Shown: piece after piece, positions 7,581 through 52,743 of the stretch
Layout: the number at the start of each line of letters is the position of its first letter
Numbering within the stretch: the first letter of the stretch is position 1
From: Nitrospira japonica
Lineage (GTDB): Bacteria > Nitrospirota > Thermodesulfovibrionia > Thermodesulfovibrionales > SM23-35
NCBI GenBank assembly: GCA_020725385.1
Contig: DYFC01000010.1
Coordinates: 23,789-87,788 of the forward strand
Direction: 5' to 3'
DNA: 64,000 nt
Made by a program: the position numbers and the translations under genes
The notes under the pieces: generated by a model
Databases searched by the model: none
What the model was told of the DNA's origin: nothing
Seen by the model: the letters and a program-made list of their open reading frames with translations, nothing else

Positions 7581-8597
7581 GTGCGTATACTCGGAATTGA
7601 TACATCATGTGATGATACATCTGCTTCAGTTGTTGAAAACGGCATAAAAATAATATCAAATATTGTCTCCGGTCAATCCGAAATTCATAAAAAATATGGC
7701 GGCATAGTCCCTGAACTTGCATCCCGTAAACACGTTGAAATGATAATCCCTGTTGTTGAACAGGCTCTGAAGAAAGCTGAAATTGAACTTAAGGATATAG
7801 ATGGTATTGCTGTATGTCATGGTCCGGGACTTATAGGTTCACTTTTAGTAGGATGTTCATTTGCAAAAGCAATATGTTATACAACCAAAATCCCTTTGCT
7901 CGCTGTCAATCACCTCGAAGGACATATCTTTGCTTCGTTCCTTGAAGAGCCAAGACCGGAATTTCCATTCATTGCACTTATAGTTTCAGGCGGGCATACA
8001 TCTCTTTACATGGTAGATGGATTTGACCGGTATAGAGAACTCGGCAAGACAAGAGATGATGCTGCTGGTGAAGCTTATGATAAAGTATCTAAACTTCTTG
8101 GGCTCGGATATCCTGGTGGTCCTGTTATTGACAGTCTTGCAAAAGAAGGTAACCCAAAAGCAATAGATTTTCCAAGAGCATATTTGCCGGAATCTTTTGA
8201 TTTCAGTTTTAGCGGAATCAAAACCGCTGTTCTAAATTTTGTTAAATCAACAGGATTTGAAAATTATGAAATTAAAACTAAAAAACCAGAATTATTATTA
8301 GATATAGCAGCCTCTTTTCAGGCCGCTGTTGTGGATGTGCTTGTAAGAAAAACAGAATGGGCAATTAAAAGAACATGGATAAAAAGAGTTGTGCTCTCAG
8401 GCGGTGTTGCAGCAAACAGCCAATTAAGAAGAAGAATGAAAGAAATGGGTGATGAAAGAGAAGCAGAAATTATTATTCCTTCAATTCCATTATGTACTGA
8501 CAATGCTGCTATGATAGCTGCTGCCGGTTACCACCATTTATTGACCGGTAAATTAGCAGACCTTACTTTAAACCCGAAAGCTTATTTGCCTTTATGA
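7581..8597 (+). CDS. tsaD: tRNA N6-adenosine threonylcarbamoyltransferase
   Basis: 338 aa with a GTG start. Kae1/Gcp/TsaD signatures: ILGIDTSCDDT, NHLEGH, GGVAAN. Confidence 0.9.
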   Translation: MRILGIDTSCDDTSASVVENGIKIISNIVSGQSEIHKKYGGIVPELASRKHVEMIIPVVEQALKKAEIELKDIDGIAVCHGPGLIGSLLVGCSFAKAICYTTKIPLLAVNHLEGHIFASFLEEPRPEFPFIALIVSGGHTSLYMVDGFDRYRELGKTRDDAAGEAYDKVSKLLGLGYPGGPVIDSLAKEGNPKAIDFPRAYLPESFDFSFSGIKTAVLNFVKSTGFENYEIKTKKPELLLDIAASFQAAVVDVLVRKTEWAIKRTWIKRVVLSGGVAANSQLRRRMKEMGDEREAEIIIPSIPLCTDNAAMIAAAGYHHLLTGKLADLTLNPKAYLPL

Positions 8598-38603: not shown

Positions 38604-38678
38604 AGGCGCGTAGCTCAGTGGGAGAGCGCTTCCTTGACGCGGAAGAGGCCAAGGGTTCAATCCCCTTCGCGCCTACCA
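38604..38678 (+). tRNA. tRNA-Val (anticodon GAC), CCA encoded
   Basis: AGGCGCGTAGCTCAGTGGGAGAGCGCTTCCTTGACGCGGAAGAGGCCAAGGGTTCAATCCCCTTCGCGCCTACCA. The cloverleaf folds by hand, with anticodon loop TTGACGC. Confidence 0.9.
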
Positions 38679-38689
38679 TTTAATAGATA

Positions 38690-39367
38690 TCAATGTACTT
38701 TATTTAAGAATTTCTCAATTATATCAGCATCTTCATTACTTATATCCGTAAATTTTATTCCATAGTAATTCATTTCCTCATTTTCTTTTTTCTCAAGAGT
38801 CCTTACAATTTCGGCTTCTACTGATATCTTTCTCGATTCAGGGATGCTTAAATTACACAAAATTAAGTCTCCTTCTGAAAGCAAAGCTTTCGTATTTATT
38901 AACATACCCGATGTGCTTATATTCTCTGTATATGCTATAATACTTTTTCTTCTAAAATTACCTTCAATTTTTAATTTAACAGGTATTCTGCATGATTTTC
39001 TTTGTGCAATATTAAGAAGCTGGTGCATCTCTTGAAGCAAAATTGCACTATTTATAGGGTATGTTAAGAATGTATTTGCCTGACATTTTAAGCAACGCTG
39101 GCGGTGTAATTTTGTGTTTGAGCATAAAATAATAATAGATACTTTATTTAGCTCTTTATCATTTCGTATGAGGGAGCAAAGTGTTTCTCCGCTCATACTT
39201 TTGGAGTCAAGATACGTGACTATGAGATCTGCTTTTTCAGTTTTATGTATTAAGAGAACATGCTTATTTGATAAAGATATATATTTTTTTATATCTTCTC
39301 TATCAAGGAAACTCTGTTCTTTTTCGAGTTCCTTATTTATTTTTTTATCAATAATAATTTTTTTCAT
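38690..39367 (-). CDS. receiver-like domain + PilZ (c-di-GMP-binding) protein
   Basis: PilZ motifs RKSCR (RxxxR) and NISTSG (D/NxSxxG). The N-terminal half has a CheY-like pattern. The likely start is MKKIIID at 39367, although the ORF track extends to 39433. Confidence 0.7.
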   Translation of the reverse strand: MKKIIIDKKINKELEKEQSFLDREDIKKYISLSNKHVLLIHKTEKADLIVTYLDSKSMSGETLCSLIRNDKELNKVSIIILCSNTKLHRQRCLKCQANTFLTYPINSAILLQEMHQLLNIAQRKSCRIPVKLKIEGNFRRKSIIAYTENISTSGMLINTKALLSEGDLILCNLSIPESRKISVEAEIVRTLEKKENEEMNYYGIKFTDISNEDADIIEKFLNKVH

Positions 39368-39486
39368 CTGGCTTTTATACCAGTATATATTATCAGTCCT
39401 TAAGAGTAAAGTACCAAAGAGAGCAAAAAGCATAGATTAGTTTTCTACTTGGGAAGTAACTATTAAAGTATTTGAAAGGAAATTAT

Positions 39487-40739: not shown

Positions 40740-41465
40740 CTATTCAATGCGCACGAATTTTTCTTTTGCAACCATCCGGATAAGATTCTCTGATGCAGCC
40801 TCAAGACTAATCTTGTCAAGGGATTCCATGGTAACCATCACAGAATATTCCAGATTATCGAGTACAGGATAGGAACCTATCTTAACGGTCTTAAATCTTT
40901 TCACAATATCATTAAGCAAAGGAGCAACTGTTGATTCTGATTCATTAAGATATATCTTTTTTAAATGTACAACAGGTTCATTGAAAAGCTTTTCTATTGC
41001 AAAGAATTTTTTTCTTAGAAGCTGGGGAATACCCGGAAGAATATAAACGTTTAAAAACTTTATTAAAGGGAAAGTTAAGTTATTGTCATTTATAAGTTCA
41101 GCACCTTCAGGAACTTCAGCCATTTTGAGTTGTTCTGGAGATAATTTGCCTAATTTCAACTCGAGAAATGCTTTTAGAGTTGGATCTATCACTGTTCTAA
41201 CATTGAAAGCTCTAGAAATGCCTTCTATTGTTACGTCATCATGAGTAGGACCGATTCCACCTGATGTGAAGACAAAATCGTATTTTTTTGAGAATTCTCT
41301 CACCTCATTTGCAATTTCATCTACATTATCCGGAATTATAGAAATACGGCTTAACTGAATTCCGTGAGCCCATAATTCCTGAGCCATAAAAAAGGAATTG
41401 TAGTCCTGAACCTTTCCTGTGAGTATCTCGTCTCCGATTATTATTATGCCTGCTGTTTTAGCCAT
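40740..41465 (-). CDS. MoaB/Mog/CinA-N-type molybdopterin-binding-fold protein
   Basis: 241 aa with IIIIGDEILTGKVQDYN and TSGGIGPTHDDVT. Confidence 0.7.
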   Translation of the reverse strand: MAKTAGIIIIGDEILTGKVQDYNSFFMAQELWAHGIQLSRISIIPDNVDEIANEVREFSKKYDFVFTSGGIGPTHDDVTIEGISRAFNVRTVIDPTLKAFLELKLGKLSPEQLKMAEVPEGAELINDNNLTFPLIKFLNVYILPGIPQLLRKKFFAIEKLFNEPVVHLKKIYLNESESTVAPLLNDIVKRFKTVKIGSYPVLDNLEYSVMVTMESLDKISLEAASENLIRMVAKEKFVRIE

Positions 41466-41525: not shown

Positions 41526-41559
41526 ATAAAAAAGGCAGGATTTGGGATTACCCTGCCTT
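41526..41559 (-). terminator. intrinsic terminator after the Cys/Asp-repeat protein gene
   Basis: The minus strand reads AAGGCAGG-GTAATCCCAAAT-CCTGCCTT followed by TTTTTTAT. It starts 24 nt after the stop at 41583. Confidence 0.7.
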
Positions 41560-41582
41560 CAAAGAATTTTATTATTTTTAAC

Positions 41583-42800
41583 TTATGCTTTTTGCTTCTT
41601 TTTCAAATAAAAAATTGCACCTATCCCGGCAATAAGCATAAAGATAAGCATTCCCCATTCTGTCATTGTTGGTATACTTAAAGGATTATTTAAAGGGTCT
41701 TGACAGGTACCATAGTGTATTGGTGTTGGTAATTCTTCTCCCGGAGGAACAGGTGTCTGGGATGTATCAACAGTGCCTGTTTGATTTGTAGCGAATACTA
41801 ATGCTCCACCTGCATTCCATGCACTCGTACGCAAGTCAATATTTCCGATTGCATTAAAAGTTCCGCTTCCCTGTAAACTCATTGCTCCAAATACAACAAC
41901 TTCCTGACTTGTTGCAACTGTCAATTGTCCGGTAGTTGTTATCGCTACATTATAAGGTATAAAAAAGCAAGAAAAGGCACAGATTCCTTCAAATGAAGTG
42001 CCTGGTGGAAGTTCATATGTCCCATCGTTATTATAATCTCTTAATTCTGGATCACCTGCACATGAATTATCGCAGTTTGTATCAGCTTCAAGGACACCAT
42101 CATTGTCACAGTCTCTCAGAAACGGGCCAACATTCATAGGAGTTAGCATATTATTACCTGTACTAAAAGAAGGGACTGGATTAAAGATAGCATCTCGAGC
42201 ATCAATAACTGTTGCAGCATGTGAGTAATCGAAGGCAAGTCCAATAAAAATAGCAATGGTACAGAATCTGTATAACATCTGTAGTGCTTTGTTTAAACCT
42301 GCTTTTGCAAATTCTCTTCTGGTTGTCTGATCATTCATTACTCCCTCACCTGAACCACATCCTTCACAAGGAGGATTGTCGCCAGAACATGTATCAGACC
42401 CTGTACAATTATCAGTTGCACATACATCTGAGTATGTACACCCAGTAGTAACATCAATACGGCAAAGATCAATATTACAGCTTCCGGACTTATCCAAAGT
42501 ACATATATCAGTATTACAGAATGGGCTTTGTTGATTTTGAATATCAAGTTTACATTTATCAATTCCGCATGCATTCGTTATGTCAACCTGGCATGAATCC
42601 GCAGTAGTACAATAATCTTTACCACTACAGGTATCTGAAACAGTACATAAATCAGGATTACAACCATTAACAGCATAAGCATTTGTAGAAAACATTGTTG
42701 CATTAATTTTTCTCAGAGGCGGAAGTTCGGATACAACACCAATGGCTACCATTCCCCCTGTAACTCTATACAACCATCTCAAAAATTCCCTCCTTCTCAT
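41583..42800 (-). CDS. Tat-signal-like, C-x(2,3)-D tandem-repeat protein with internal second signal-like segment and IPTL-CTERM-type anchor (candidate radical-SAM substrate)
   Basis: 405 aa. It starts MRRREFLRW. Residues 47-148 contain 18 Cys arranged as CNPDLCTVSDTCSGKDYCTTADSCQVD...CTGSDTCSGDNPPCEGC. Residues 159-195 read TTRREFAKAG...IAIFIGLAFDYSHA. The C-terminus is IPTMTEWGMLIFMLIAGIGAIFYLKKKQKA. Confidence 0.75.
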   Translation of the reverse strand: MRRREFLRWLYRVTGGMVAIGVVSELPPLRKINATMFSTNAYAVNGCNPDLCTVSDTCSGKDYCTTADSCQVDITNACGIDKCKLDIQNQQSPFCNTDICTLDKSGSCNIDLCRIDVTTGCTYSDVCATDNCTGSDTCSGDNPPCEGCGSGEGVMNDQTTRREFAKAGLNKALQMLYRFCTIAIFIGLAFDYSHAATVIDARDAIFNPVPSFSTGNNMLTPMNVGPFLRDCDNDGVLEADTNCDNSCAGDPELRDYNNDGTYELPPGTSFEGICAFSCFFIPYNVAITTTGQLTVATSQEVVVFGAMSLQGSGTFNAIGNIDLRTSAWNAGGALVFATNQTGTVDTSQTPVPPGEELPTPIHYGTCQDPLNNPLSIPTMTEWGMLIFMLIAGIGAIFYLKKKQKA

Positions 42801-42803
42801 TAA

Positions 42804-44282
42804 CTATCCTCCTTTCTTATCTGCTATGAGATAAGGTTGTGTTGTTTCTTCATAAATATCACTTAAAATATCTTTATCGCTTACATTCAATTCTGAATTT
42901 ATAGCCATCGCACATTCTACCTGATGTTTAATTATTTTGCAACTCTTCTCACATGGAATTTCTATCGAATCATTAGTCATTAAAGCATGATGCCAGCATC
43001 CTCCACCACAAAAATATCTTACCCAGCAATCCTTGCAAGGTTGACGATTGTCTACTGATAGATTAAGTATTTTCTCCTGAAGTCTTAAATCCAGACCATT
43101 TTCAATATCACCCATCCGGTAATCTTCCATACCTACAAAACGATGACAGGGATAAAATCCACCATCTTGTGACAATGCAAAATAAGTTCTAAAAGCCCCG
43201 CAGAAATAAGGACTGCGGTCTCTTACAATCCTTGTCATTCTAATAAACCTTACTAAATTTGTATAATTAAAATATCTGTTTTGTCTAACGCTATCAACTA
43301 AATAAAGGGCAACTGTTTCAATCTGTTTTTTTATTTCCTCAATGTCTTCATCTGTTACTGTTAATTCTCCTGCTCCGGCAACAGATGGTTCGGTATGAAC
43401 TGAACCAAACCCAAGCGAAAGAAGATGGTCTACAACAAGTGGTATATTAACTGTTCCTCTTGGGATTGTAACTCTTGCAGGAACTCTATCAGGTCTTGCA
43501 GAGATAAGACGCTTTATTCCAGAAACGACAAGATCATATGAGCCTTTACCGTTAGGTAATATTCTGTTCAAATTATGTATTTCTTTTGGTCCATCTATTG
43601 ATATTTGACAACCAATATTGTTTTTAACAACAAAATCTACTACTTCGTCATTAAGAAGGATTCCATTGGTAACAAGAGACATACTAACTTTCTTTTCCAT
43701 CTCTTTTTCCTTCTCTCTAACATAAGAAACTATTTCTTTTATGAGTCTAAATTCAAGGAGAGGTTCTCCCCCAAAGAAAATCAGACTTAAATCTTTATGC
43801 TTTCCTGAATTATTAAAAAGAAAATCAACACCCTTCTTTGCTATATCAATTGACATGCTTTTTCTTTTCGCACCATATAAATAAGGCTGTTGCTCCCATT
43901 CCTGCATTCCGTGCGAGCCATAGCAGTAACGGCATCTCATATTGCAGTCATGTGTAACCATAAGTTCAAGATGCCTTAATCCATAGCGCTTTTTTAGTGG
44001 CGGAAGATCCCGAAAATCATTATCATTATTATCAAATATAAACTTTTCTTTTTTTAAATATTTCAAAACTTCTTTTATTTCCCATTTTGGATATTTATCC
44101 TTTAAGGCTCTTAAGGGGTCAGCTTTATTATTTTTTTCAAGAAGCTTTACTATTTCACAAACCAGGGGAGTTACTTCATAGAAAAGCATTGTTTTGACAT
44201 TGAATAGGATATTCTTACCTAAACGATTGAAAAGGTAGTGTTCAACAATCTTATATTCAGTCTGTTTATTAAAGATACCCAT
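42804..44282 (-). CDS. radical SAM/SPASM-domain maturase with N-terminal RRE-like extension
   Basis: Radical-SAM cluster motif HDCNMRCRYCYG, and a SPASM signature (FCGAF...DGGFYPC ... CKDCWVRYFCGGGC ... C). The ~95-110-aa N-terminal extension is consistent with a RiPP recognition element (RRE). The likely start is MGIFNKQ at 44282, because the ORF-track start at 44330 runs into a RayT remnant. Confidence 0.85.
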   Translation of the reverse strand: MGIFNKQTEYKIVEHYLFNRLGKNILFNVKTMLFYEVTPLVCEIVKLLEKNNKADPLRALKDKYPKWEIKEVLKYLKKEKFIFDNNDNDFRDLPPLKKRYGLRHLELMVTHDCNMRCRYCYGSHGMQEWEQQPYLYGAKRKSMSIDIAKKGVDFLFNNSGKHKDLSLIFFGGEPLLEFRLIKEIVSYVREKEKEMEKKVSMSLVTNGILLNDEVVDFVVKNNIGCQISIDGPKEIHNLNRILPNGKGSYDLVVSGIKRLISARPDRVPARVTIPRGTVNIPLVVDHLLSLGFGSVHTEPSVAGAGELTVTDEDIEEIKKQIETVALYLVDSVRQNRYFNYTNLVRFIRMTRIVRDRSPYFCGAFRTYFALSQDGGFYPCHRFVGMEDYRMGDIENGLDLRLQEKILNLSVDNRQPCKDCWVRYFCGGGCWHHALMTNDSIEIPCEKSCKIIKHQVECAMAINSELNVSDKDILSDIYEETTQPYLIADKKGG

Positions 44283-44301
44283 ATTCTTCAGGTTGAAATA
44301 T

Positions 44302-44330
44302 AATATAGCTATTTGACCTAACAAATTCAA
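44302..44330 (-). promoter_or_regulatory. candidate sigma-70 promoter for the radical-SAM operon
   Basis: The minus strand reads TTGAAT-17 nt-TATATT (-35 at 44330-44325, -10 at 44307-44302), about 20 nt upstream of the ATG at 44282. Such matches are common by chance in AT-rich DNA. Confidence 0.3.
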
Positions 44331-44640
44331 TTAAATAAATCAAGCAGGGGCAATTCATGAATTGCCCCTGCACAATCCGTTTCAATACATATAATTCCAT
44401 GAATATGGTTAGGCATAATTATATATTCATCCAGTTCAATATCCGGAAATTGAACTGGAATTTCTATCCAATATTGTTGGGCAATTATCCCATACTCATT
44501 TAACTTCATCCTACTATTAATCACGTCCCCAAATAAATAATCCTTATTTTTGTGCATATTGGAATGAAATACGCTCCTGATTGTGAATAATTATAACCTT
44601 TCAGCCGTATTGATTTTCTTTTATGAATATCTGGATTATA
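44327..44640 (-). pseudogene. truncated, frameshifted RayT / IS200-like Y1 transposase remnant
   Basis: Nucleotide-level homology to 49179-49480. The 76-aa ORF retains ...MPNHIHGIICIE..GAIHELPL but lacks the C-terminal ~90 aa. The N-terminal ~30 codons (44558-44640) are out of frame. Homology stops at the palindrome at 44344-44371. Confidence 0.8.
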
Positions 44641-44809
44641 CACTCCAATTCACTATACCCCTTGCCTTCTCAAGACTGTTTTTGACCAATTCGCACACCG
44701 CCCAATAGACTTCATTCCTTTCATCTTCTGTCAGGCCAAAGATGTTGAATACAATATCGTCAAGGGCTTTACGGTCAGGAAGGGGTTTTGGTTTTTGTTT
44801 ACGGATGGG
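44636..44809 (-). repeat. gene-3'-end fragment, copy A
   Basis: The minus-strand translation is PIRKQKPKPLPDRKALDDIVFNIFGLTEDERNEVYWAVCELVKNSLEKARGIVNWSV*. No upstream gene body is present. Confidence 0.7.
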
Positions 44810-44851
44810 TCAGGTTGGATTGTTGGTGAGTGCTAGATGTATCAACATTGA

Positions 44852-45073
44852 CTATTTCAAAAAGTCTATGAATTCATCTACAGTCAGTTTAGATTGTTCA
44901 ATAATGCTATACAGTGTTCCTTTTTTTAAATCCCGTGAATGAACAGGAATAGTTACTCGCAAAGAGCCTTTTTTAAAAATCTTATGACTGCCTTTTTGTC
45001 TATGCTCTACAAAACCTGCCCTTTGAAGCGCCTTTATAACATCGCTGCTTTTAAGCGCTGGCAATCTGCTCAT
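44852..45073 (-). CDS. hicA: HicA-family mRNA interferase toxin
   Basis: 73 aa: LPALKSSDVIKALQRAGFVEHRQKGSHKIF. Confidence 0.85.
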   Translation of the reverse strand: MSRLPALKSSDVIKALQRAGFVEHRQKGSHKIFKKGSLRVTIPVHSRDLKKGTLYSIIEQSKLTVDEFIDFLK

Positions 45074-45293
45074 ATGGGGATTCCACTTCTACAATAAGAT
45101 GGTCTTCTTCCGGAATTGGAAGGCCATCGGCTTGCAGACTCTCAAGGTAAAGCGCTATGGCCTCTTTAATATTCGCCAATGCCTCGTCATAAGTATCACC
45201 TTCAGATATACAGCCTGGCAAAGAAGGAACCGTTGCGGTATAGCCGCCTTCTTCCTGTGGCTCAAATATAACCTTATAATATTTTTTTGCCAT
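45051..45293 (-). CDS. hicB: HicB-family antitoxin
   Basis: 80 aa: YKVIFEPQEEGGYTATVPSLPGCISEGDTYDEALANIKEAIALYLE. It overlaps hicA. Confidence 0.85.
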   Translation of the reverse strand: MAKKYYKVIFEPQEEGGYTATVPSLPGCISEGDTYDEALANIKEAIALYLESLQADGLPIPEEDHLIVEVESPYEQIASA

Positions 45294-45323
45294 ATATCCT
45301 CCTGATTTTCAATTATACCAGAT

Positions 45324-45431
45324 TCATAAACTCTTAGCCTTATTCAATCTATTAGCGACTAATTCACACACCGACCAGTAAACCTCATTCCTCTCGGCTT
45401 CCGTCAAACCGAGGATGTCGAAGAAGATATC
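45324..45431 (-). repeat. gene-3'-end fragment, copy B
   Basis: The minus-strand translation is DIFFDILGLTEAERNEVYWSVCELVANRLNKAKSL*. Confidence 0.7.
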
Positions 45432-45555
45432 ATAAAAAAATGCATTTGAGAGTCAAAATTGGTATTTCAGCAAGAACACTATTGTGGAAAGTAGAAAGAA
45501 TTATATCGCTATTGTCAATAATTTTTTGTGATCATAGCGTAGCTTACTTAAGGTC

Positions 45556-46008
45556 TCAAGATTTGAACATTAATAATTCATCAAGCAATTCGTTAGAAAC
45601 ATAAAAACCCTTATCTTTAAGTTCTTGAGCCTTTTTAAAAGCGCTCTCTATAAGTCCAAGTTTTTCGGCTTTTAACAAAACACCAATACTACCACTAATA
45701 GACAATCCTAAATCTTCTGCAACCTTTCGAGCTTTTAAATCATCAATTAATGCTCTAAAATTAGTCTCATAGGCAAGGGCTATAACCTCAGATTCACCTC
45801 TTCCTAAGTTTAAATTACGCATTAAGACATTGATTAATCTGCTTTCAACCTTTCGCACTAATAAGCAATCAATATTGATTTCGCCAAATTCTTTGACCAC
45901 AGCATCAGGCAAAATAATCTCCTTATAGATTTTACAGAGAATTTGTAAGAGATCAATTCGTTCGAAGGCTATTAAAACAGAGGCATCAACAATGACTGCT
46001 TCAGGCAT
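45556..46008 (-). CDS. DUF3368/PIN-like nuclease-fold toxin
   Basis: The likely start is MPEAVIVDASVLIAF, overlapping the antitoxin stop by 8 nt. It pairs with a UPF0175 protein as in the known DUF3368/UPF0175 modules. Confidence 0.7.
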   Translation of the reverse strand: MPEAVIVDASVLIAFERIDLLQILCKIYKEIILPDAVVKEFGEINIDCLLVRKVESRLINVLMRNLNLGRGESEVIALAYETNFRALIDDLKARKVAEDLGLSISGSIGVLLKAEKLGLIESAFKKAQELKDKGFYVSNELLDELLMFKS

Positions 46009-46222
46009 TCGATAGTTCTTTCTCAAGATTCAGTTTTTGAAACTTTATTGGAGCTATCCCCTTATGCAGCAATATCTCAACAAATGCCTTTTCAGAATAC
46101 CCGGCTATCTCAGATGCTTTACCAAGAGATATTAAATCTTCGTCAAGAAGCTTTATGGCAAGCAATAGTTTTAATTCTTCTTCCGGTATATTTAGCTCAG
46201 GTATAGTTAGTGATTTGCCCAT
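46001..46222 (-). CDS. UPF0175-family antitoxin
   Basis: 73 aa: EELKLLLAIKLLDEDLISLGKASEIAGYSEKAFVEILLHKGI. Confidence 0.7.
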   Translation of the reverse strand: MGKSLTIPELNIPEEELKLLLAIKLLDEDLISLGKASEIAGYSEKAFVEILLHKGIAPIKFQKLNLEKELSNA

Positions 46223-46372
46223 TTATACCCTTCTTTCTTTAAAAGAATTATAACATAGCCCTTCGAAAGAAGACATCATGCAGTAACCCGTGTATCCCAT
46301 CTGCGCATCTTCTCAAGCTCCTTCAATATCTTGGCCTCGGAGATGCCTTCTTTCCGGAATATAACTAAATCT

Positions 46373-47373
46373 TCACGTATTACTTTTTGGCAAAACATTT
46401 TTAGCAATTTCTAAAATCTTAATATTCCCTTCGCTTCCATCTTTTGACGAATCTATGTAACCAGTAGAAGTAGTGCTGAATACAGCTTTTGCAGCTTCGA
46501 GAACAACAGTATCCTTAATTTGTACATCCTTTGCAGCAGAAGAGAAAGCCTGAAGGGTTTGAATGCTTAATGCTCTATGCTGATAAACTGCCGATTGATG
46601 CATCAACGCTCTGTAGATTTTACCGCACCAAATAGTAGCGGCAGGATACCAAGAACAACTATTTTTGTTGTAATTTTCTGCCAAATTTGACCTTGGTCTA
46701 AACCTGCCTCTGTAAAATACCAAAGGAAAGTAGCTGCAACTACTGTAATAACCCCAAGAAATGCTGTGACTTTAAGCCATATTTGGGCTGTCTCTTTCAA
46801 TACAGAAGCTTCTTTTTTAAAATCCTCTGTAAATACAGCAGCACCGGCTGATGCCGATGCTTCACGGGCTTTTATTATAATATCATCTATTTCCTTCCCC
46901 TTTTGATCTATCTTGGTCTTAGCTTCTTCAACCAATATCTCAGCTTCCTTTACAGATGTTGTCAGTGATTCAACGTTGCGGGCTACATCGCCTTTCTGAT
47001 ATGCAAGGAAAGGAATCCAAGGAGATGCAGCAGTATAAAGCGAATCTGCCCGATTTTGAATCTGGGAAATAAATTGATCTCTTTGCTGAGCCGGCGAGCC
47101 AGATTCTATTGAGAATTTATTAATGGTATCAAAAAGTCCGTTGATTTGCTGTATCTCATTTGTAATGGAACTAATGGCATTTATGGTAAGCAACTCAACT
47201 GGCAGCACTTTTAGATAATTAACTATTGAATATATACGGTCAATATCACTACGAACATCCTCAAGTGTAATAGTTCCCCACTCTGGCCTGGCAATCAGTT
47301 TTTCTTTATCAAATTGCAAAAATTGTTCAATTTGTTTTTTCAACCCATTAAGCTGCTGTGAATTTCTTGACAT
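46373..47373 (-). pseudogene. two-TM membrane protein of unknown function, apparently frameshifted
   Basis: The 256-aa ORF (46603-47373) ends inside its second TM helix (...KIVVLGILPLLFGAVKSTER*). A second frame (46373-46723) continues ...AATIWCGKIYRALMHQSAVYQHRALSIQTLQAFSSAAKD... for about 110 protein-like codons. The two overlap over 46603-46723. Confidence 0.55.
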
Positions 47374-47405
47374 ATTTTTACCCCTCCTCGTTTATAAAAC
47401 ACAAA

Positions 47406-48491
47406 TTAACTCTTCTCCCATTCAAACCTCTTTTTTAGATCATTACAGTGACTATGAGGAATTTTATTGTCATGTTGGAGTCTGCCAACGACTATACCAG
47501 CGGCGATACCGAGTTCAGAGGCGAATTTTTGTATAGCTGCCTTACTGTATCTTCCATTCCGTATGAATTGACTGTATTGTTTCGGCGGAATTAGAAAATC
47601 AGAGGCAAACCTGTCAGCCTTGTCTTCCTTGGAGTTATTAGCATCACACTCAATAAATACCTCTTTCTTTCCATGCATGAGTATATGACCTGCTTCATGG
47701 AAGAAACTGAACCATAATTGATCGTCGCTTTTATAGCGAAGACTCAATTGAATGACAGCCTTGTTAGGATTTGTCCACCATGTCGCACCCGATGCCCTGA
47801 TTCTAGGAATCTCAGGCACAAAGGCAACGGCAACACCTGCATCAGCACATAAACGAATAACTTCCTGTTGAAAGTGCTCAGGCGGTTTAACAGTAAGCTG
47901 ACGGACATTTAAAAGCGCATTCTTGAACTTCGATGCATCAAAAGGCTTGCAACTGATATTCCGAGCTGTCAGTTCACCCATCCTAAGCCATGATGCAACA
48001 GCATAAGGGTCGTTTTGGAAAACTTTTGATGTTCGATAGGAAACCCGGGCGCCCATCCATCTTGTTTCCCATTGTTCAGGAGAAGCGACGCCAAAGAAAT
48101 TTAAGACAGCTTGAAGCTGCTGAACCATGCCTGAATGTTTCTTAACCCAACCCATCTTGATAAGCACATTCAAAGGCATTTTCTTCAGCCAGTTTATCTG
48201 CCGCTGCAACCTCTTTTGCTCATTTAGTCTTGCCAGTGTCTCCTGATAATTACGCTCCAGATTATTCCAGAAGCTTGCAGGAATACCGAGGACCCTTTCC
48301 AGTTGTAACGCAGTTTCCGGTGTTATAGCAGCCTTTCCCTTAATGATTTCATTAATTGTCTTCTTCGGTCTGCCTGTGCGTTCTGCAAGCTCTGCCTGAG
48401 ACATTCCAATTGCTTCCATGGTTTCAAGAAGCGTTTCCCCGGGGGGCACAGCGTAATCAGGCATAAACTGATTTTTTATATTTTTACTCAT
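47406..48491 (-). CDS. HigA-like XRE HTH fused to ImmA/IrrE-type zinc metallopeptidase domain
   Basis: HTH (MSQAELAERTGRPKKTINEIIKGK) plus HEXXH (FFHEAGHILMH). The likely start is MSKNIKN at 48491, in an ATGAGTAA overlap with the upstream toxin stop. Confidence 0.8.
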   Translation of the reverse strand: MSKNIKNQFMPDYAVPPGETLLETMEAIGMSQAELAERTGRPKKTINEIIKGKAAITPETALQLERVLGIPASFWNNLERNYQETLARLNEQKRLQRQINWLKKMPLNVLIKMGWVKKHSGMVQQLQAVLNFFGVASPEQWETRWMGARVSYRTSKVFQNDPYAVASWLRMGELTARNISCKPFDASKFKNALLNVRQLTVKPPEHFQQEVIRLCADAGVAVAFVPEIPRIRASGATWWTNPNKAVIQLSLRYKSDDQLWFSFFHEAGHILMHGKKEVFIECDANNSKEDKADRFASDFLIPPKQYSQFIRNGRYSKAAIQKFASELGIAAGIVVGRLQHDNKIPHSHCNDLKKRFEWEKS

Positions 48492-48822
48492 GTGTGTCCT
48501 CCACACCAATAATTTTAATTATCGTCACTTTAGTCCAATCAAGCCCTCCATCCAGCTTTTTGGGTATCGGGTTGTTTGCGGGCTCAAAAATAAGTCGATA
48601 AGGATAGTCAAGATCTACAGACAGTTGTCCTTTTCTATTTCCTTTCAATTCATGGCATCGAGCCTTGGGAAGATTGCGCAACTCTTCAAGCGCATTAGCA
48701 GCAGCAAATTCGACTAACCTTCTTTTTAAAAGCTTAGCTCTTTTAGTGCCGAATCTTTTAATCATAAGATTCTCATTGTTGCACTTTTTCTCAAGTTTGG
48801 TTGTCTTAAATAGAATAACCAC
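48484..48822 (-). CDS. HigB-like (plasmid maintenance killer, RelE/ParE superfamily) toxin
   Basis: 112 aa: ...RCHELKGNRKGQLSVDLDYPYRLIFEP..., typical of the HigB-like family. Confidence 0.75.
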   Translation of the reverse strand: MVILFKTTKLEKKCNNENLMIKRFGTKRAKLLKRRLVEFAAANALEELRNLPKARCHELKGNRKGQLSVDLDYPYRLIFEPANNPIPKKLDGGLDWTKVTIIKIIGVEDTHE

Positions 48823-48875
48823 AGATTAACTTTTTGTCAAGATAATTATTAACCCTTAGGGTAAATGATTTTTCT

Positions 48876-48944
48876 TTACACACTCTTTATCTCCTCAAGA
48901 CCGTTCTTGACTAATTCACATACTGCCCAGTAAACTTCATTTAA
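48876..48944 (-). repeat. gene-3'-end fragment, copy C (shortest)
   Basis: The minus-strand translation is (L)NEVYWAVCELVKNGLEEIKSV*. It abuts the RayT stop codon at 48941-48943. Confidence 0.7.
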
Positions 48945-49480
48945 CTTTTATGAAGACCATAATATTCGTCCAATTCCCATTTCAAAGGATTGGTAAGAAT
49001 ATATTTCCTGATCGTGTTTAATTCTTGTTCATTTCGTATAATGTGTTCATAATAATTACGTTGCCAGACAGGATTGCTGCGTGTATTACGTATTTGGTTG
49101 ATTTGTTTTGCGGATTGCATTTTAAACCACCCAATAATTTTTGGTAACAACATCTTTCTACGTTGTCTTTTATATTCATGTAGGGGCAATTCATGAATTG
49201 CCCCTACAAAATTCGTTTCAATACATATAATTCCATGAACGTGGTTTGGCATCACAATAAATTCATCAATGGCCGTATTCGGAAAATGTCGTGGTATTTT
49301 GTTCCAATATTGTTGTACAACGGTCCCCATAATATTTAATTGCATCTCCCCGTTGGTTATATCTCCAAACAAACATTCCCTGTCCTTTGTGCATATCGTC
49401 ACAAAATACGCCCCTGCCTGTGAATAATCATAACCTTTCAGGCGGATTGATCTTCTTTTATGAATGTCTGGATTATACAC
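48941..49480 (-). mobile_element. REP-associated tyrosine transposase (RayT, IS200/IS605 Y1 family), apparently intact
   Basis: 179 aa with a GTG start. Motifs: YDYSQAGAYFVTICT, HUH motif MPNHVHGII, and the catalytic-Tyr region QRNYYEHIIRNE. Confidence 0.85.
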
Positions 49481-49764: not shown

Positions 49765-52743
49765 CTAAAGAACAGTTTCAAATTCTAATATCTGATAGCC
49801 GGAGAGAAATTTTTTTCGTTTTGCTTTTATTTTTATTGTATCGCCTTCTTTTTTATCAAACATGAATATTTTTATATCATCTACATTTTCTATCTTCCAT
49901 TCATTCAGTGAAAAAAGTATATCGCCTTTTCTCAATCCGGAGTTTTTTACTCTGCTACCGGGAATAATATCTTCTATTCGGACGCCTGAATCCGTTTCTT
50001 TTAAAATCAATCCGAGTTTTAATGTCGAAGGTGCGGGCAGTTGCTCCGTGAAAAGAATATAGTCTGCAATTTTTTTGTCTGTGTTTTCAGAGACAGGTAT
50101 TAGAGTTACATAATCTTTACCGTTTATTCTTTTCAATCTGTTTGGTATTCCAGAGCCATACATTATATGACCAACCCCTGCAAGTATTACCATCTGATAG
50201 TCCGGATTCTTTGCCATAAATTCAGCTGCGGTATGAGCCATTGTTTCATCCCATAAAATTTGTGACTGGACAAAATATTCAAAATTCCTGCTTTCATGAT
50301 TTCTGTGCGATGAAAAAACCTCTTTTAAAATTGATTTATAGTTTTCATCTGACATATCCATATTTTCAGGTATTTCCCTTTTTTCAATAAAGTCGAGGCC
50401 ATCAATTCCTTCACGGGAAACTTTCTTGATTATTTCGGTCCATTGATTAAGGGCTATTACAGGAATTTTATTTGCCTTAGCATATTCCATTATTTCCCTG
50501 TAAAGATTGTAATCAAATTGCCACCTTTTATAATACTCGGAGGATTTAAGGAATTGTTTTTCACTTATAGTTCCTGAAAGATAGTCATTCAATGCCTTCT
50601 GAAATGGCCTCTGAAACATTTCCATTCCTATTGCTATTTTTCTTCCTCTTTCATGAAGCCCCATAATTATTTTTAGTTGTGTTTTATGGTCTTCGTAATT
50701 TTCATGTCTTTCTCCTACATATATCACGGGTTTAAATTTTATTTGCTCGATAATTTCATCTATATTCAAAGTTTTTTCAGGTTTTATACCTTTTATCGAA
50801 ATATCAAGCGGAAACCTTATTCCACGGGATGTTTCAACAATATCTTTCTGAATATTTTTACCATCTCCAAATTTGATAGAAGAATATTTCCCGTAATGAA
50901 ATATTTTTCTTGAAACAGAATCTGCTTCCTGTTTTGAATCTGCATAAGCTATCGCAATAACTTTTTCAGAATTCAATGGATTTTTTCTTATTTCAAGAGA
51001 AAAACCTTTGTCAAATTTTTTTATACTCCCAAATAATCTTTTTATTATTCTTCCTTCATCTGTAAATACCAGTACCGATGATGTTCTTAAATCTTCGTCA
51101 TTAACATCTATTTCATCTTTTACAGAAAAATTTTGTTCTTTAAATATTTCTGTTAGAGTTTCGTATTTTTCTTTTCCCTCATCGGGTAAAACAATTAGCT
51201 TTTTATTATCTCCTATAAGTCTTGAGATTAAAGGGGGAAATTCATCCTCAGAAAATTTTCTCAAGATATCATAGTCCGGATCAATAACAAGTTCGGATGG
51301 ATTTCCTTCAACCTCTATATTGAAATTTTCTTTTGCTTTTTCGATATGCAACTTTTTTCTAAATGAGCCGTTTGCAGTTATAATTTCAACTGGCACATCA
51401 ATTATATAAGGTTCTTCCTTTTGTATAATATTAAAGGTAACAGTTTGCTTACCATCGAGTATTTTTACAGATAAATTATTTATTTCAAACAAAGGCAAGC
51501 CTTTTCTATCAAGCCACTGAGAAAAAAACCCATCAAGATTTTTCCCGGAAGATTTTTCAAATGAGGATTTAATGTCATCCCATGAAACATTCTGAAAAGA
51601 TTTTTCATTAATGATAACCTTTAGTGTATTAATAAACAAATCTTCACCAACAAGATTTTTAAGCATATGAAACACCATCGATGCCTTGCCATAGCCAATA
51701 GCTTTTGTCGCGAAATCTGTTCTTGATGTAAATTCCCTTAGGGTAATTTCTTTTTTAGGATCTACATAACTTAGAAAATCGGATATTATATTCTTTCTGT
51801 ATTGCCACCCTTTTCCTTTTTGCTCTTCATATAAATGATCCGAAAGATAGGCTGTTAATCCTTCGGCCCAGTTTCCTTTCTTATAATCAATATAGACATA
51901 ATTTCCGAACCATTGATGGAGTATTTCATGTCCAAGAGCAGTCTCTGCAATAAATGGAAGACGTATGACATCCTGGCCGAGCAATGTAAATGTAGGCATT
52001 GAATATCCTGTGGATTGAAAATTCTCTACAACAGAAAAACGTTTGTATGGATATTCACCGAATAAATTTTTATATAACCGAATAAATTTTTTAGAATACT
52101 CCATATATGTATTTGCAAGCTTTCCGTCTTCAGGGAAAAAATAAGCATAAAGCTGGATATTGTCTATTCTTTCTTTAAACTCTATATATTTGGCAGCCAC
52201 AAATGTTATTTCATTAAGCGGATGTAAAAAGTAAAAGGAATATTCTTTGACGTTACCGTTACTTTTTACTTCTATTTCTTCAGCTTCTGATATAGCACTG
52301 AAATCCACCGGTACTTTAGCCTTTAAATTAAAATAAGCCATACCATCGAAAACAGGGTACCACATACGTGTAAGGGAAATGCCTTTTCCGCCAATAATGT
52401 TACTGCCAACAACTCCTGAATTTTGTAAATTTGAATTTTCCTGATAATCCGGGAAATAAGCATCGTAAACAATTTCGATAGAACTTTTACCCTTCAGGGT
52501 TATTGCTTTGAGATTTATATAATCAGGAATGTTTTCTCCATTGGTTTTTACTGAAATTATTTTGAGGTTACCAAAAGAAATAAGCAGGTCTTTTTCATCC
52601 TGCGATGTGATAATAGCTTTACCACTGATAGTGGATTTATCAAGATCGAATGCTACAGACAGATTATATACAGGAAGTTTTTCTTCAGCAAAGCAGATTG
52701 AAGAAGATAAAGCAAAAATCAGAGACAAAATAAAATATAACAC
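49765..52743 (-). CDS. secreted M1-family zinc metallopeptidase fused to a ChaN/Tiki-like domain and a C-terminal PDZ domain
   Basis: 992 aa with a signal peptide. M1 site GHEILHQWFGNYV...WAEGLTAY. The central ERHENYEDHKTQLKII...IAIGMEMFQRPFQ..LNDYL is ChaN-like. The C-terminal GLILKE..GVRIEDIIPGSRVKNSGLRKGDILFSLN is a PDZ domain. Confidence 0.75.
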   Translation of the reverse strand: MLYFILSLIFALSSSICFAEEKLPVYNLSVAFDLDKSTISGKAIITSQDEKDLLISFGNLKIISVKTNGENIPDYINLKAITLKGKSSIEIVYDAYFPDYQENSNLQNSGVVGSNIIGGKGISLTRMWYPVFDGMAYFNLKAKVPVDFSAISEAEEIEVKSNGNVKEYSFYFLHPLNEITFVAAKYIEFKERIDNIQLYAYFFPEDGKLANTYMEYSKKFIRLYKNLFGEYPYKRFSVVENFQSTGYSMPTFTLLGQDVIRLPFIAETALGHEILHQWFGNYVYIDYKKGNWAEGLTAYLSDHLYEEQKGKGWQYRKNIISDFLSYVDPKKEITLREFTSRTDFATKAIGYGKASMVFHMLKNLVGEDLFINTLKVIINEKSFQNVSWDDIKSSFEKSSGKNLDGFFSQWLDRKGLPLFEINNLSVKILDGKQTVTFNIIQKEEPYIIDVPVEIITANGSFRKKLHIEKAKENFNIEVEGNPSELVIDPDYDILRKFSEDEFPPLISRLIGDNKKLIVLPDEGKEKYETLTEIFKEQNFSVKDEIDVNDEDLRTSSVLVFTDEGRIIKRLFGSIKKFDKGFSLEIRKNPLNSEKVIAIAYADSKQEADSVSRKIFHYGKYSSIKFGDGKNIQKDIVETSRGIRFPLDISIKGIKPEKTLNIDEIIEQIKFKPVIYVGERHENYEDHKTQLKIIMGLHERGRKIAIGMEMFQRPFQKALNDYLSGTISEKQFLKSSEYYKRWQFDYNLYREIMEYAKANKIPVIALNQWTEIIKKVSREGIDGLDFIEKREIPENMDMSDENYKSILKEVFSSHRNHESRNFEYFVQSQILWDETMAHTAAEFMAKNPDYQMVILAGVGHIMYGSGIPNRLKRINGKDYVTLIPVSENTDKKIADYILFTEQLPAPSTLKLGLILKETDSGVRIEDIIPGSRVKNSGLRKGDILFSLNEWKIENVDDIKIFMFDKKEGDTIKIKAKRKKFLSGYQILEFETVL

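What the first reader, a model, noticed from the sequence alone, without database searches (positions are those of the whole stretch)
41583..44330. Radical SAM/SPASM maturase coupled to a Tat-signal protein with 15 tandem C-x(2,3)-D units and an IPTL-CTERM anchor
Seen in sequence. (1) ORF 42804-44282 has the radical-SAM cluster motif CNMRCRYC after a ~95-110-aa N-terminal extension. It also has a C-terminal SPASM signature (C...GGFYPC, then CKDCWVRYFCGGGC = Cx2Cx5Cx3C, then a further Cys). (2) Its TAG stop (42804-42806) is 3 nt from the ATG (42800) of the next ORF, and its last codons AAAGGAGGA serve as that ORF's Shine-Dalgarno, so the two are tightly coupled. A hairpin with a T-tract terminator (41526-41559) closes the two-gene unit. 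(3) The 405-aa product starts MRRREFLRW. Residues 47-148 hold 18 Cys, and 15 of them are followed by Asp 2-3 residues later (CNPD, CTVSD, CSGKD, CTTAD, CQVD, CGID, CKLD, CNTD, CTLD, CNID, CRID, CTYSD, CATD, CTGSD, CSGD). Most form a 5-6-residue C-x-x-(x)-D-x unit. (4) It ends IPTMTEWGMLIFMLIAGIGAIFYLKKKQKA. Established knowledge. SPASM radical-SAM enzymes with RRE-like N-domains crosslink RiPP precursors. The ranthipeptide maturase PapB (freyrasin) joins Cys sulfur to the Asp beta-carbon in repeated CX3D motifs. Tat exports pre-folded substrates. IPTL-CTERM (IPTLSEWG + TM + basic tail) is a PEP-CTERM-like sorting tag whose sorting enzyme is not known. Inference. This may be a protein-scale ranthipeptide-like system in which a poly-(Cys-Asp thioether) module is installed in the cytoplasm, exported folded by Tat and attached at the cell surface through IPTL-CTERM. 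I do not know of a described system that combines these four elements. Alternative: the Cys array is simply a disulfide-stapled beta-solenoid (6-residue Cys spacing, as in insect antifreeze proteins) and the radical-SAM enzyme acts on something else.
Basis: partly seen in the sequence, partly recalled or inferred. Interest (0 to 1): 0.88.

Follow-up and report, generated by a model that had tools for sequence, protein, structure and literature searches.

The report
Radical-SAM enzyme with Cys-Asp array protein
A two-gene cassette pairs a thioether-forming type of radical-SAM enzyme with a dedicated protein carrying 15 Cys-x2-3-Asp units (up to 58 in relatives) placed in front of the signal peptide of a secreted surface protein; no model in the HMM libraries or paper in the held library describes it, and it would be a protein-scale relative of ranthipeptides.

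Summary
ORF 42804-44282(-) is a radical-SAM/SPASM enzyme. It aligns over its full length to the SCIFF maturase CteB. Its best HMM scores are to the SCIFF, PapB, nif11 and QhpD maturases, and it is far from sulfatase maturases. It passes no curated cutoff, so it is a separate orthogroup.

The 405-aa partner has 15 Asp in its array. Every one lies 3-4 residues after a Cys (0 of 100,000 shuffles reach this). In homologues 96.6% of 1,163 array Cys follow the same rule.

Coupling is near-obligate. On the substrate side 8 of 10 loci have the enzyme upstream, and the other two are cut by contig ends. On the enzyme side 25 of 26 loci have an array gene downstream, and the exception is cut by an IS element. 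Enzymes at 36% identity or less have no such array.

Some genomes split the gene exactly there. The IPTL-like anchor therefore belongs to the passenger, not the array.

Tat export of the array is unproven: the consensus is present, but the Tat HMMs do not match. Cys-Asp thioether chemistry is inferred.

Verdict: a new variant of a known kind.

The parts
42804..44282 (-). Radical-SAM/SPASM maturase gene (492 aa). It is a ranthipeptide-type enzyme related to CteB, PapB and QhpD, and forms its own orthogroup.
   Evidence: PF04055 52.6 bits. TIGR03974 304, NF047865 295, TIGR04064 291, TIGR03906 253 bits, all below their cutoffs; anSME 108. CteB 5WGG E 3.7e-70, aa 16-463 against 8-450. About 120 homologue clusters.
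43983..44282 (-). N-terminal ~100-aa extension of the enzyme, homologous to the N-terminal peptide-recognition (RRE) domain of CteB
   Evidence: The alignment to CteB starts at aa 16 of the query and aa 8 of CteB. The full-length SCIFF-maturase model covers aa 18-462. That CteB's N-terminal domain is an RRE is established knowledge; leader binding here is inferred.
43923..43946 (-). CX3CX2C radical-SAM cluster motif (CNMRCRYC, aa 113-120)
   Evidence: C113, C117 and C120 are invariant in 46 homologues.
42912..43202 (-). SPASM region (aa 361-457) with seven invariant Cys for auxiliary clusters
   Evidence: C361, C379, C416, C419, C425, C429 and C448 are invariant. The region aligns to the CteB SPASM domain. 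Pfam SPASM scores 17.4 bits, below its cutoff of 21.5.
42801..42815 (-). Gene junction: AAGGAGG Shine-Dalgarno within the last codons of the enzyme gene, then TAG and a 3-nt spacer before the ATG
   Evidence: Read directly from the sequence.
41583..42800 (-). Substrate gene (405 aa): leader, Cys-Asp array, internal signal, beta-rich domain, C-terminal anchor
   Evidence: 36 homologue clusters, no Pfam or NCBIfam family.
42672..42800 (-). Conserved leader, aa 1-43: RRxFL (Tat-consensus-like), a Gly/Thr-rich weak hydrophobic stretch, the PPLxRIN motif, and AxA
   Evidence: R3, R4, F6, G15, G16, P28, L29, N33, A41 and A43 are invariant or nearly so in 28 homologues. KD19 hydrophobicity is 1.13. 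No Tat-signal HMM hit.
42345..42662 (-). Array of 15 Cys-x(2,3)-Asp units plus CEGCGSGE (aa 47-152), net charge -12
   Evidence: All 15 Asp are paired with a Cys; 0 of 100,000 shuffles reach this. The rule is family-wide. AlphaFold confidence is below 50.
42216..42326 (-). Internal signal-peptide-like segment, aa 159-195: TTRREFAKAGLNKALQMLYR, then FCTIAIFIGLAF, then DYSHA|A
   Evidence: Conserved junction (N170, A172, L176, Y177). KD19 1.72. Predicted helix 161-189. Genes are split at this point in L092, L093, L001 and L006. A lipobox variant occurs in L039.
41697..42215 (-). Conserved passenger domain, aa 196-368: three DxDxDG-like acidic loops followed by a short-strand beta-solenoid-like body, with four invariant Cys
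   Evidence: pLDDT about 90. Invariant GPFLRDCDxDG...IDLRTSAW. Only 45 representatives among 1.84 billion proteins. No significant PDB fold match. The calcium-binding reading of the loops is inferred from the motif.
41586..41675 (-). C-terminal sorting-signal-like tail: IPTMTEWG, a transmembrane helix, then KKKQKA (IPTL-CTERM-like, below threshold)
   Evidence: PF18203 17.9 against 20.8 bits; TIGR04174 16.4 against 20.5. 9 of 31 homologues hit PF18203, best E 2.3e-9. KD19 1.87.
41531..41560 (-). Intrinsic-terminator-like hairpin with T-tract after the substrate gene
   Evidence: 11 pairs followed by TTTATTTAAA.
44344..44371 (-). Terminator-like hairpin just upstream of the enzyme gene, which isolates the two-gene unit
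   Evidence: 12 pairs, 7 of them G-C.

Best explanation
This is a self-contained two-gene cassette. A ranthipeptide-type radical-SAM/SPASM maturase, built like CteB with an N-terminal peptide-recognition domain, acts in the cytoplasm on the protein encoded immediately downstream.

The substrate is modular. A conserved leader is followed by a variable array of Cys-x2-3-Asp units: 15 here and up to 58 in relatives. Next comes a conserved basic GLNxAxKWLY junction that runs into a real signal peptide. Last comes a secreted passenger, which here is a beta-solenoid-like domain with a C-terminal IPTL-like anchor.

The enzyme most likely joins each Cys sulfur to the side chain of its own Asp 3-4 residues downstream, as PapB and QhpD do. 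The product would be a chain of small thioether rings that is rigid, thiol-free and strongly acidic.

Shown: the enzyme class, the obligate pairing, the Cys/Asp rule, the modular and split architecture, and that the hydrophobic segment is a signal peptide for the passenger.

Inferred: the thioether chemistry, leader recognition by the enzyme's N-terminal domain, and the fate of the array.

Because the array lies on the N-terminal side of the passenger's signal peptide, it is on the cytoplasmic side while the passenger is exported. It may later leave the cell through its own Tat-like leader. That step is open.
For: Enzyme class. Scores are TIGR03974 304, PapB 295, nif11-type 291, QhpD 253 and anSME 108 bits. 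CteB matches over the full length at E 3.7e-70. The CX3CX2C motif and seven SPASM Cys are invariant.

Pairing, substrate side. 8 of 10 genome loci from Brocadiaceae, Thermodesulfovibrionales, Desulfatiglandales, Syntrophorhabdus and others have the enzyme upstream on the same strand. The other two start at contig ends.

Pairing, enzyme side. 25 of 26 informative metagenome loci with an enzyme at 41.6% identity or more carry an array ORF directly downstream (some of these loci are near-duplicates). The exception is cut by an IS21-like element. None of the 48 loci at 36% identity or less has such an array; one (L070) has only a small 5-unit Cys-rich ORF. No third gene is conserved.

Cys/Asp rule. 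In the window 15 of 15 Asp pair with a Cys, and 0 of 100,000 shuffles reach this. Across homologues 1,124 of 1,163 array Cys have Asp or Glu at +3/+4. The Cys-to-Asp spacing is fixed at 3-4 while the Asp-to-next-Cys spacing varies from 2 to 9.

Chemistry precedent. PapB accepts Cys-Xn-Asp with n = 0-6 (PMC9413430). QhpD crosslinks Cys to Asp/Glu inside a protein in the cytoplasm before export (PMC7876137).

Modularity. Split loci L092 and L093 encode the enzyme, then array protein(s) ending ...GINKALRALYQIG or ...GLNRALRWLY.., then a C-domain protein with its own ordinary signal peptide. Other passengers, or a lipobox, follow the same junction.

Structure prediction. AlphaFold gives the array pLDDT 30-54 in two family members while the passenger domain reaches 90-97.
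Against: There is no chemical evidence, so the crosslink type is inferred from family resemblance. The enzyme passes no curated equivalog cutoff. The top-scoring model is the SCIFF maturase, and according to the literature (recalled, not checked here) its characterised member CteB links Cys to Thr rather than Asp. Regular arrays also conserve Ser and Gly (CxxDxCxSDxSGx), and their role is unexplained. The leader looks like an export signal (RRxFL, weak hydrophobic stretch, AxA), which sits awkwardly with an array held on the cytoplasmic side by the next signal peptide. The function of the product is unknown.
Confidence: 0.65

Rival explanations
1. The N-terminal RRxFL leader is a working Tat signal. 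The whole crosslinked protein is exported folded and displayed at the surface through the IPTL-CTERM anchor as a single chain.
For: The leader matches the Tat consensus (RREFLRW). It has a Gly/Thr-rich, weakly hydrophobic stretch (KD19 1.13), basic residues before an AxA site, and RR is nearly invariant. Cytoplasmic crosslinking before export has a precedent in QhpC (PMC7876137). The tail is IPTL-like.
Against: A conserved signal-peptide-like segment lies between the array and the anchored domain. Its basic flank is on the N-terminal side and an AxA site on the C-terminal side. In a single chain, both flanks of the array cannot satisfy this topology. The same segment is an ordinary Sec-type signal peptide in the split genes (P0168) and a lipobox signal in L039. 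The Tat-signal HMMs give no hit. The anchor belongs to a passenger that also exists without the array.
Confidence: 0.12
2. Sequential two-signal processing. The internal signal exports the passenger first. Signal peptidase and then an intramembrane protease cut it, releasing leader-array-...WLY. This is the same product that split genomes encode directly. It is then exported through its own Tat-like leader after crosslinking.
For: Stand-alone array proteins end 2-9 residues after the (W)LY motif, at the boundary between the basic and hydrophobic parts of the signal, in six genes from four loci (L001 x2, L006, L092, L093 x2). A seventh (L005_8894) keeps part of the hydrophobic stretch. Both signal-like elements, including their AxA sites, are conserved across phyla. 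Post-cleavage degradation of signal peptides by RseP/SppA is established knowledge, cited here from memory.
Against: This is entirely inferential. No protease is encoded nearby. The Tat function of the leader is untested, and the HMMs are negative.
Confidence: 0.18
3. The array is not crosslinked to Asp. It is a disulfide-stapled beta-solenoid or a Cys/Asp metal-binding module, and the enzyme performs a different reaction or acts on another target.
For: Cys and Asp are both good metal ligands. The enzyme is below every curated cutoff.
Against: The enzyme and array genes are almost never found apart, and no other candidate substrate is conserved nearby. Asp sits at a fixed +3/+4 from 96.6% of Cys, which a disulfide scaffold does not need. 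AlphaFold predicts no confident solenoid for either a short or a long array. The sulfatase-maturase score is low and no C/S-x-P-x-R motif is present.
Confidence: 0.1

Closest known systems
PapB/PapA (freyrasin), a ranthipeptide system
   Same: A SPASM radical-SAM enzyme with an N-terminal recognition domain acts on repeated in-line Cys-Xn-Asp motifs. PapB tolerates n = 0-6 (PMC9413430). The PapB model scores 295 bits.
   Different: According to the abstract of PMC9413430, PapA has six CX3D motifs. Here there are 15-58 units, mostly CX2D, inside 330-1300-aa proteins. The units are flanked by two signal-like elements and fused, or adjacent, to a secreted passenger. The score is below the PapB cutoff of 340.
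QhpD/QhpC (gamma subunit of quinohemoprotein amine dehydrogenase)
   Same: Cys-to-Asp/Glu thioethers are made inside a protein in the cytoplasm, directed by a leader, and followed by export (PMC7876137). The QhpD model scores 253 bits.
   Different: QhpC has three crosslinks and needs the QhpE protease, the QhpF ABC exporter and QhpG. No such neighbours are conserved here. There is no quinone-cofactor context.
CteB/CteA (SCIFF maturase, PDB 5WGG)
   Same: This is the best structural and sequence relative. The alignment is full-length, covering the N-terminal domain, the core and the twin-cluster SPASM region. It is also the top HMM.
   Different: From my own knowledge, SCIFF precursors are about 45-aa peptides with six Cys, and the characterised link is to Thr. 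The score here is 304 against a cutoff of 425. Enzymes at 36% identity or less never have Cys-Asp arrays next to them.
Repeat-target radical-SAM systems named in NCBIfam (CXXX-repeat TIGR04115, Cys-every-fifth CefB NF038107)
   Same: A SPASM maturase is paired with a tandem Cys-periodic target.
   Different: The scores are much weaker: 143 and 117 bits. From the family names, the periodicity rule differs and no Asp partner is implied. I did not inspect their targets.
IPTL-CTERM / PEP-CTERM-type C-terminal sorting signals
   Same: The tail has a motif (IPTMTEWG), a transmembrane helix and a basic end. 9 of 31 relatives pass as PF18203 hits.
   Different: The window protein is below threshold. 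Other family members end in different tails or extra domains. The tail belongs to the passenger, not to the array.

Membership tests
Ranthipeptide-type radical-SAM/SPASM maturases (CteB/ScfB, PapB, QhpD) | CX3CX2C radical-SAM cluster motif in a radical-SAM core | tested here: met
   CNMRCRYC at aa 113-120. PF04055 52.6 bits. Invariant in 46 homologues.
Ranthipeptide-type radical-SAM/SPASM maturases (CteB/ScfB, PapB, QhpD) | C-terminal SPASM domain with seven Cys for two auxiliary clusters | tested here: met
   C361, C379, C416, C419, C425, C429 and C448 are invariant and align to the CteB SPASM domain. The Pfam SPASM model alone is below threshold, 17.4 against 21.5.
Ranthipeptide-type radical-SAM/SPASM maturases (CteB/ScfB, PapB, QhpD) | N-terminal peptide-recognition (RRE) domain | tested here: inconclusive
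   The first ~100 aa align with the N-terminal domain of CteB and with full-length SCIFF, QhpD and nif11-type models. Leader binding was not tested.
Ranthipeptide-type radical-SAM/SPASM maturases (CteB/ScfB, PapB, QhpD) | Score above the curated cutoff of a named equivalog model | tested here: not met
   TIGR03974 304 against 425; NF047865 295 against 340; TIGR04064 291 against 519; TIGR03906 253 against 453. It is a sister orthogroup, not a member of any named one.
Ranthipeptide-type radical-SAM/SPASM maturases (CteB/ScfB, PapB, QhpD) | Adjacent Cys-rich substrate with Cys-Xn-Asp/Glu motifs | tested here: met
Ranthipeptide-type radical-SAM/SPASM maturases (CteB/ScfB, PapB, QhpD) | Product carries thioethers from sulfur to a non-alpha carbon | not testable with these tools
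   Needs mass spectrometry or NMR of the co-expressed product.
Anaerobic sulfatase-maturating enzymes | Score above the anSME cutoff, with a sulfatase C/S-x-P-x-R target | tested here: not met
   TIGR03942 108 against 349; NF010321 77 against 441. No such motif is present in the partner.
Twin-arginine (Tat) signal peptides | S/T-R-R-x-F-L-K consensus, a weakly hydrophobic stretch, and a basic region ending in AxA | tested here: met
   MRRREFLRW..VTGGMVAIGVVS..LRK..AYA. KD19 1.13. The internal segment TTRREFAKAG also matches.
Twin-arginine (Tat) signal peptides | Match to the Tat-signal HMMs (PF10518, TIGR01409) | tested here: not met
   No hit for aa 1-50 or aa 155-200, even at E <= 10.
Twin-arginine (Tat) signal peptides | Tat-dependent export | not testable with these tools
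   Needs RR-to-KK and tat-deletion export assays.
IPTL-CTERM sorting domain | Score above the PF18203 or TIGR04174 cutoff | tested here: not met
   17.9 against 20.8 and 16.4 against 20.5 for the isolated tail. 9 of 31 relatives do match PF18203, best E 2.3e-9.
IPTL-CTERM sorting domain | Motif, transmembrane helix and basic tail at the extreme C-terminus | tested here: met
   IPTMTEWG, then MLIFMLIAGIGAIFYL, then KKKQKA. KD19 1.87.
RiPP precursor peptides (leader-core logic) | A short, dedicated precursor peptide released as a small product | tested here: not met
   The substrates are 330-1300-aa proteins, or modules of proteins.
QhpCD-type protein crosslinking system | Accessory QhpE protease, QhpF exporter and QhpG in the locus | tested here: not met
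   No third conserved neighbour in 10 genome loci plus the window. Neighbours differ between close relatives.

The most novel reading that the evidence does not exclude
A giant N-terminal extension of a signal peptide is itself the precursor of a protein-scale ranthipeptide. The passenger is exported through the internal signal. Routine signal-peptide processing then frees leader-array-WLY. That fragment carries 15-58 Cys-Asp thioether rings made by the partner enzyme and leaves through its own Tat-like leader. The enzyme's recognition domain would double as a proofreading chaperone for that leader. Split genomes encode the same two products as separate genes.
Probability: 0.15. Interest if true: 0.85.

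Novelty: new variant of a known kind. Interest (0 to 1): 0.68.

Why it matters
If the chemistry is as inferred, this would be by far the most heavily crosslinked substrate of this enzyme class: 15-58 thioether rings in one chain, against six motifs in PapA and three links in QhpC. It would also be a natural example of ranthipeptide-type chemistry used to build a protein module rather than a small peptide.

The enzyme would be a processive tool for installing many short Cys-X2-Asp staples, which is of direct interest for peptide and protein engineering.

The fused and split gene forms tie a cytoplasmically modified acidic array to secreted adhesin-like proteins in anaerobes: anammox Brocadiaceae, Syntrophorhabdus, Thermodesulfovibrionales and Desulfatiglandales. 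The two-signal layout poses a clear, testable question about how crosslinked polypeptides cross the membrane.

Tried and rejected
- Sulfatase-maturase assignment: rejected on scores.
- Internal translation start at Met164. The GAGGGAG Shine-Dalgarno-like run in the window is not conserved in the close relatives L012, L037 and L011, and more distant relatives have no Met there. Not pursued.
- Homology between the leader and the internal signal. hhalign gives 18 columns, probability 90.6%, E 1.3e-6. An HMM of the leader scores real junctions no better than shuffled ones. Left as suggestive only.
- Disulfide-solenoid rival. AlphaFold was run on the window protein and on a long regular homologue (P0009). 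Neither gave a confident array fold. This is weak evidence only.
- A third conserved gene (protease, exporter, sorting enzyme): none found.
- Source organism. Unresolved.
- Profile search for more distant array proteins: no new members beyond the known set, because the candidate list saturated at 8,000.
- Literature. No paper in the held library describes this pairing.
- The leader also contains LxxIxGG, which resembles a double-glycine leader. No peptidase-ABC transporter is nearby and 25 conserved residues follow the GG, so this reading was not adopted.

Full report
**Observation**

Both ORFs exist as described. The upstream ORF, 42804-44282(-), encodes 492 aa. It carries CNMRCRYC at aa 113-120 and seven further Cys in the SPASM pattern. 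Its TAG stop is followed by TTA and then the ATG at 42800 of a 405-aa ORF, and AAGGAGG lies within the last codons of the first gene.

A hairpin with a T-tract follows the second gene at 41560-41531(-). Another terminator-like hairpin lies just upstream of the first gene at 44371-44344(-). The pair is therefore an isolated unit.

It has 15 Asp, and every Asp lies 3 or 4 residues after a Cys. Shuffling the same residues gives a mean of 4.35 such pairs, and 0 of 100,000 shuffles reach 15. The Cys-to-Asp spacing is fixed. The Asp-to-next-Cys spacing varies from 2 to 9, so the conserved unit is C-x2-3-D.

**The enzyme**

Pfam finds the radical-SAM core; its SPASM model is just below threshold. The best NCBIfam scores are:
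- SCIFF maturase: 304 bits
- PapB family: 295 bits
- nif11-type maturase: 291 bits
- QhpD: 253 bits
- Sulfatase maturase: 108 bits

None reaches its curated cutoff. The protein aligns from aa 16 to 463 with CteB (PDB 5WGG, E 3.7e-70), including CteB's N-terminal domain. In 46 homologues the three core Cys and seven SPASM Cys are invariant. It is therefore a thioether-maturase-like enzyme in an unnamed orthogroup.

**The partner family**

The partner has 36 homologue clusters among 5.8 billion proteins and no Pfam or NCBIfam family. An alignment of 28 members shows five parts:
1. A leader with near-invariant RRxF, GG, PL..N and AxA.
2. An array of 15-58 C-x2-3-D units, often as a regular 13-residue CxxDxCxSDxSGx repeat.
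3. A junction with a basic RRxFAKAG-LNxAxKWLY stretch running into 12-16 hydrophobic residues and an AxA site.
4. A roughly 175-aa domain: GPFLRDCDxDG...IDLRTSAW, with four invariant Cys.
5. A variable end.

Across homologues 1,124 of 1,163 array Cys (96.6%) have Asp or Glu at +3/+4.

**Coupling of the two genes**

Starting from the substrate, a scan of one genome per species found 10 loci. They come from Brocadiaceae, Thermodesulfovibrionales, Desulfatiglandales, Syntrophorhabdus, Desulfobacteraceae and unclassified Deltaproteobacteria. Eight have the enzyme upstream on the same strand. The other two begin at a contig end.

Starting from the enzyme, 80 metagenome loci split cleanly:
- At 41.6% identity or more, with at least 336 nt of downstream sequence, 25 of 26 loci have an array ORF directly downstream. 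Some of these loci are near-duplicates.
- The one exception has the enzyme gene cut at aa 391 by an IS21-like element.
- None of the 48 loci at 36% identity or less has such an array. One (L070) has only a small 5-unit Cys-rich ORF.
- A 39%-identity cousin (L041) has a different CxxD repeat upstream of the enzyme.

No third gene is conserved. A 69%-identical relative sits between ilvD and dnaJ.

The segment at aa 159-195 behaves as a signal peptide for what follows it.
- It has positive charges on the N-terminal side, a short hydrophobic core (KD19 1.72) and an AxA site before ATVIDA.
- In L039 the same position carries a lipobox, LSGC.
- In L003 it precedes a different passenger.
- A profile of the C-domain finds only 45 representatives among 1.84 billion proteins.

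A few of those C-domain proteins have no array, and their contigs were read for two of them. In L092 the order is enzyme, then a 364-aa array protein ending ...RRDFVRQGINKALRALYQIG, then the C-domain protein starting MRGFIFISLAALLFCAPFAPVQA|ETVIDA. In L093 two array proteins end ...GLNRALRWLY.., and the C-domain protein starts MLRRSWLYGLSLLFIF. Brocadiaceae loci also have array-only genes that end 2-3 residues after WLY.

The gene is therefore fused in some genomes and split in others, and the split falls at the boundary between the basic and hydrophobic parts of the signal. The array module and the secreted passenger are separate but functionally linked units. The IPTL-like anchor belongs to the passenger.

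**Signals**

The leader fits the Tat consensus by eye and has a weak, Gly/Thr-rich hydrophobic stretch (KD19 1.13). The Tat-signal HMMs match neither it nor the internal segment, even at E <= 10.

The tail scores 17.9 bits against PF18203 (cutoff 20.8) and 16.4 against TIGR04174 (cutoff 20.5). Nine of 31 relatives do match PF18203.

The positive-inside rule puts the passenger outside and the array's C-terminal end inside. A single-chain model of Tat export with IPTL display of the array is therefore topologically inconsistent. Two options remain. The array may stay on the cytoplasmic face. Or it may be freed, by processing of the signal or by being encoded separately, and then exported through its own leader. 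I cannot decide between these.

**Structure**

AlphaFold models of the window protein and of a long regular homologue give the passenger domain pLDDT of about 90-97, with short strands resembling a beta-solenoid. The arrays stay at 30-54. Foldseek found no significant PDB match. The lack of a confident array fold argues weakly against an autonomous disulfide solenoid.

**Mechanism and comparison**

The most likely reaction is one sulfur-to-side-chain thioether per Cys-Asp pair. Two precedents support this. PapB accepts n = 0-6 spacers (PMC9413430). QhpD crosslinks Cys to Asp/Glu within the protein QhpC in the cytoplasm before export (PMC7876137).

This system differs in several ways:
- Scale: 15-58 units.
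- Dominant CX2D spacing.
- Placement of the array in front of a signal peptide.
- Absence of the protease and exporter genes of the Qhp system.
- Failure to pass any curated family cutoff.

No paper in the held library describes the pairing.

**Verdict**

This is a new variant of a known kind, and its chemistry and export route still need experiments.

Noticed in passing
window 44327-49480: Directly upstream of the cassette lies a patch of mobile and addiction-type genes: HicA/HicB (44852-45293), a UPF0175/DUF3368 pair (45556-46222), an HTH plus M78 peptidase regulator (47406-48509), and two IS200/REP-type Y1 transposase fragments (44327-44557 and 48941-49480).
   Followed up: partly
window 49765-52743 (-): A 992-aa protein combines an M1 peptidase domain, a ChaN/Tiki haem-binding domain (219 bits) and a C-terminal PDZ domain. 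This is an unusual fusion.
   Followed up: no
window 38690-39433 (-) and 38604-38678 (+): A receiver-PilZ protein sits next to tRNA-Val(GAC). The cassette lies between this housekeeping stretch (tmk, a CinA-like gene at 40740-41465) and the mobile patch.
   Followed up: no
L041:114-815 (+), upstream of an enzyme at 39% identity: A distant cousin system. It has a different ~21-residue repeat (RCASDVSGRCIGDLPxExRDN) that again holds two CxxD units, and the gene order is reversed, with the array upstream of the enzyme.
   Followed up: partly
L040:277-3048: The enzyme gene is truncated at aa 391 by an IS21-like transposase gene. This is the only enzyme-side locus without an array.
   Followed up: yes
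L010:5667-6827: One ORF joins the first ~245 aa of the enzyme directly to the C-domain of the substrate. This is probably an assembly collapse across the repetitive array rather than a real fusion.
   Followed up: no
L001, L003, L005, L006, L093: Several genomes carry two to four substrate paralogues after one enzyme gene. Array length differs between close relatives: 39 Cys in P0006 against 47 in P0007. The arrays therefore expand and contract quickly.
   Followed up: partly
window 42753-42785 (leader aa 6-16): The leader contains FLRWLYRVTGG, an LxxIxGG-like pattern that resembles double-glycine leaders. No peptidase-ABC exporter is nearby.
   Followed up: no
L093:5990-6010: At the split point the array gene ends ...RWLYRVERGLPC and overlaps the next gene, which starts MLRRSWLYGLS. 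The RR..WLY element is duplicated on both sides of the fission.
   Followed up: partly
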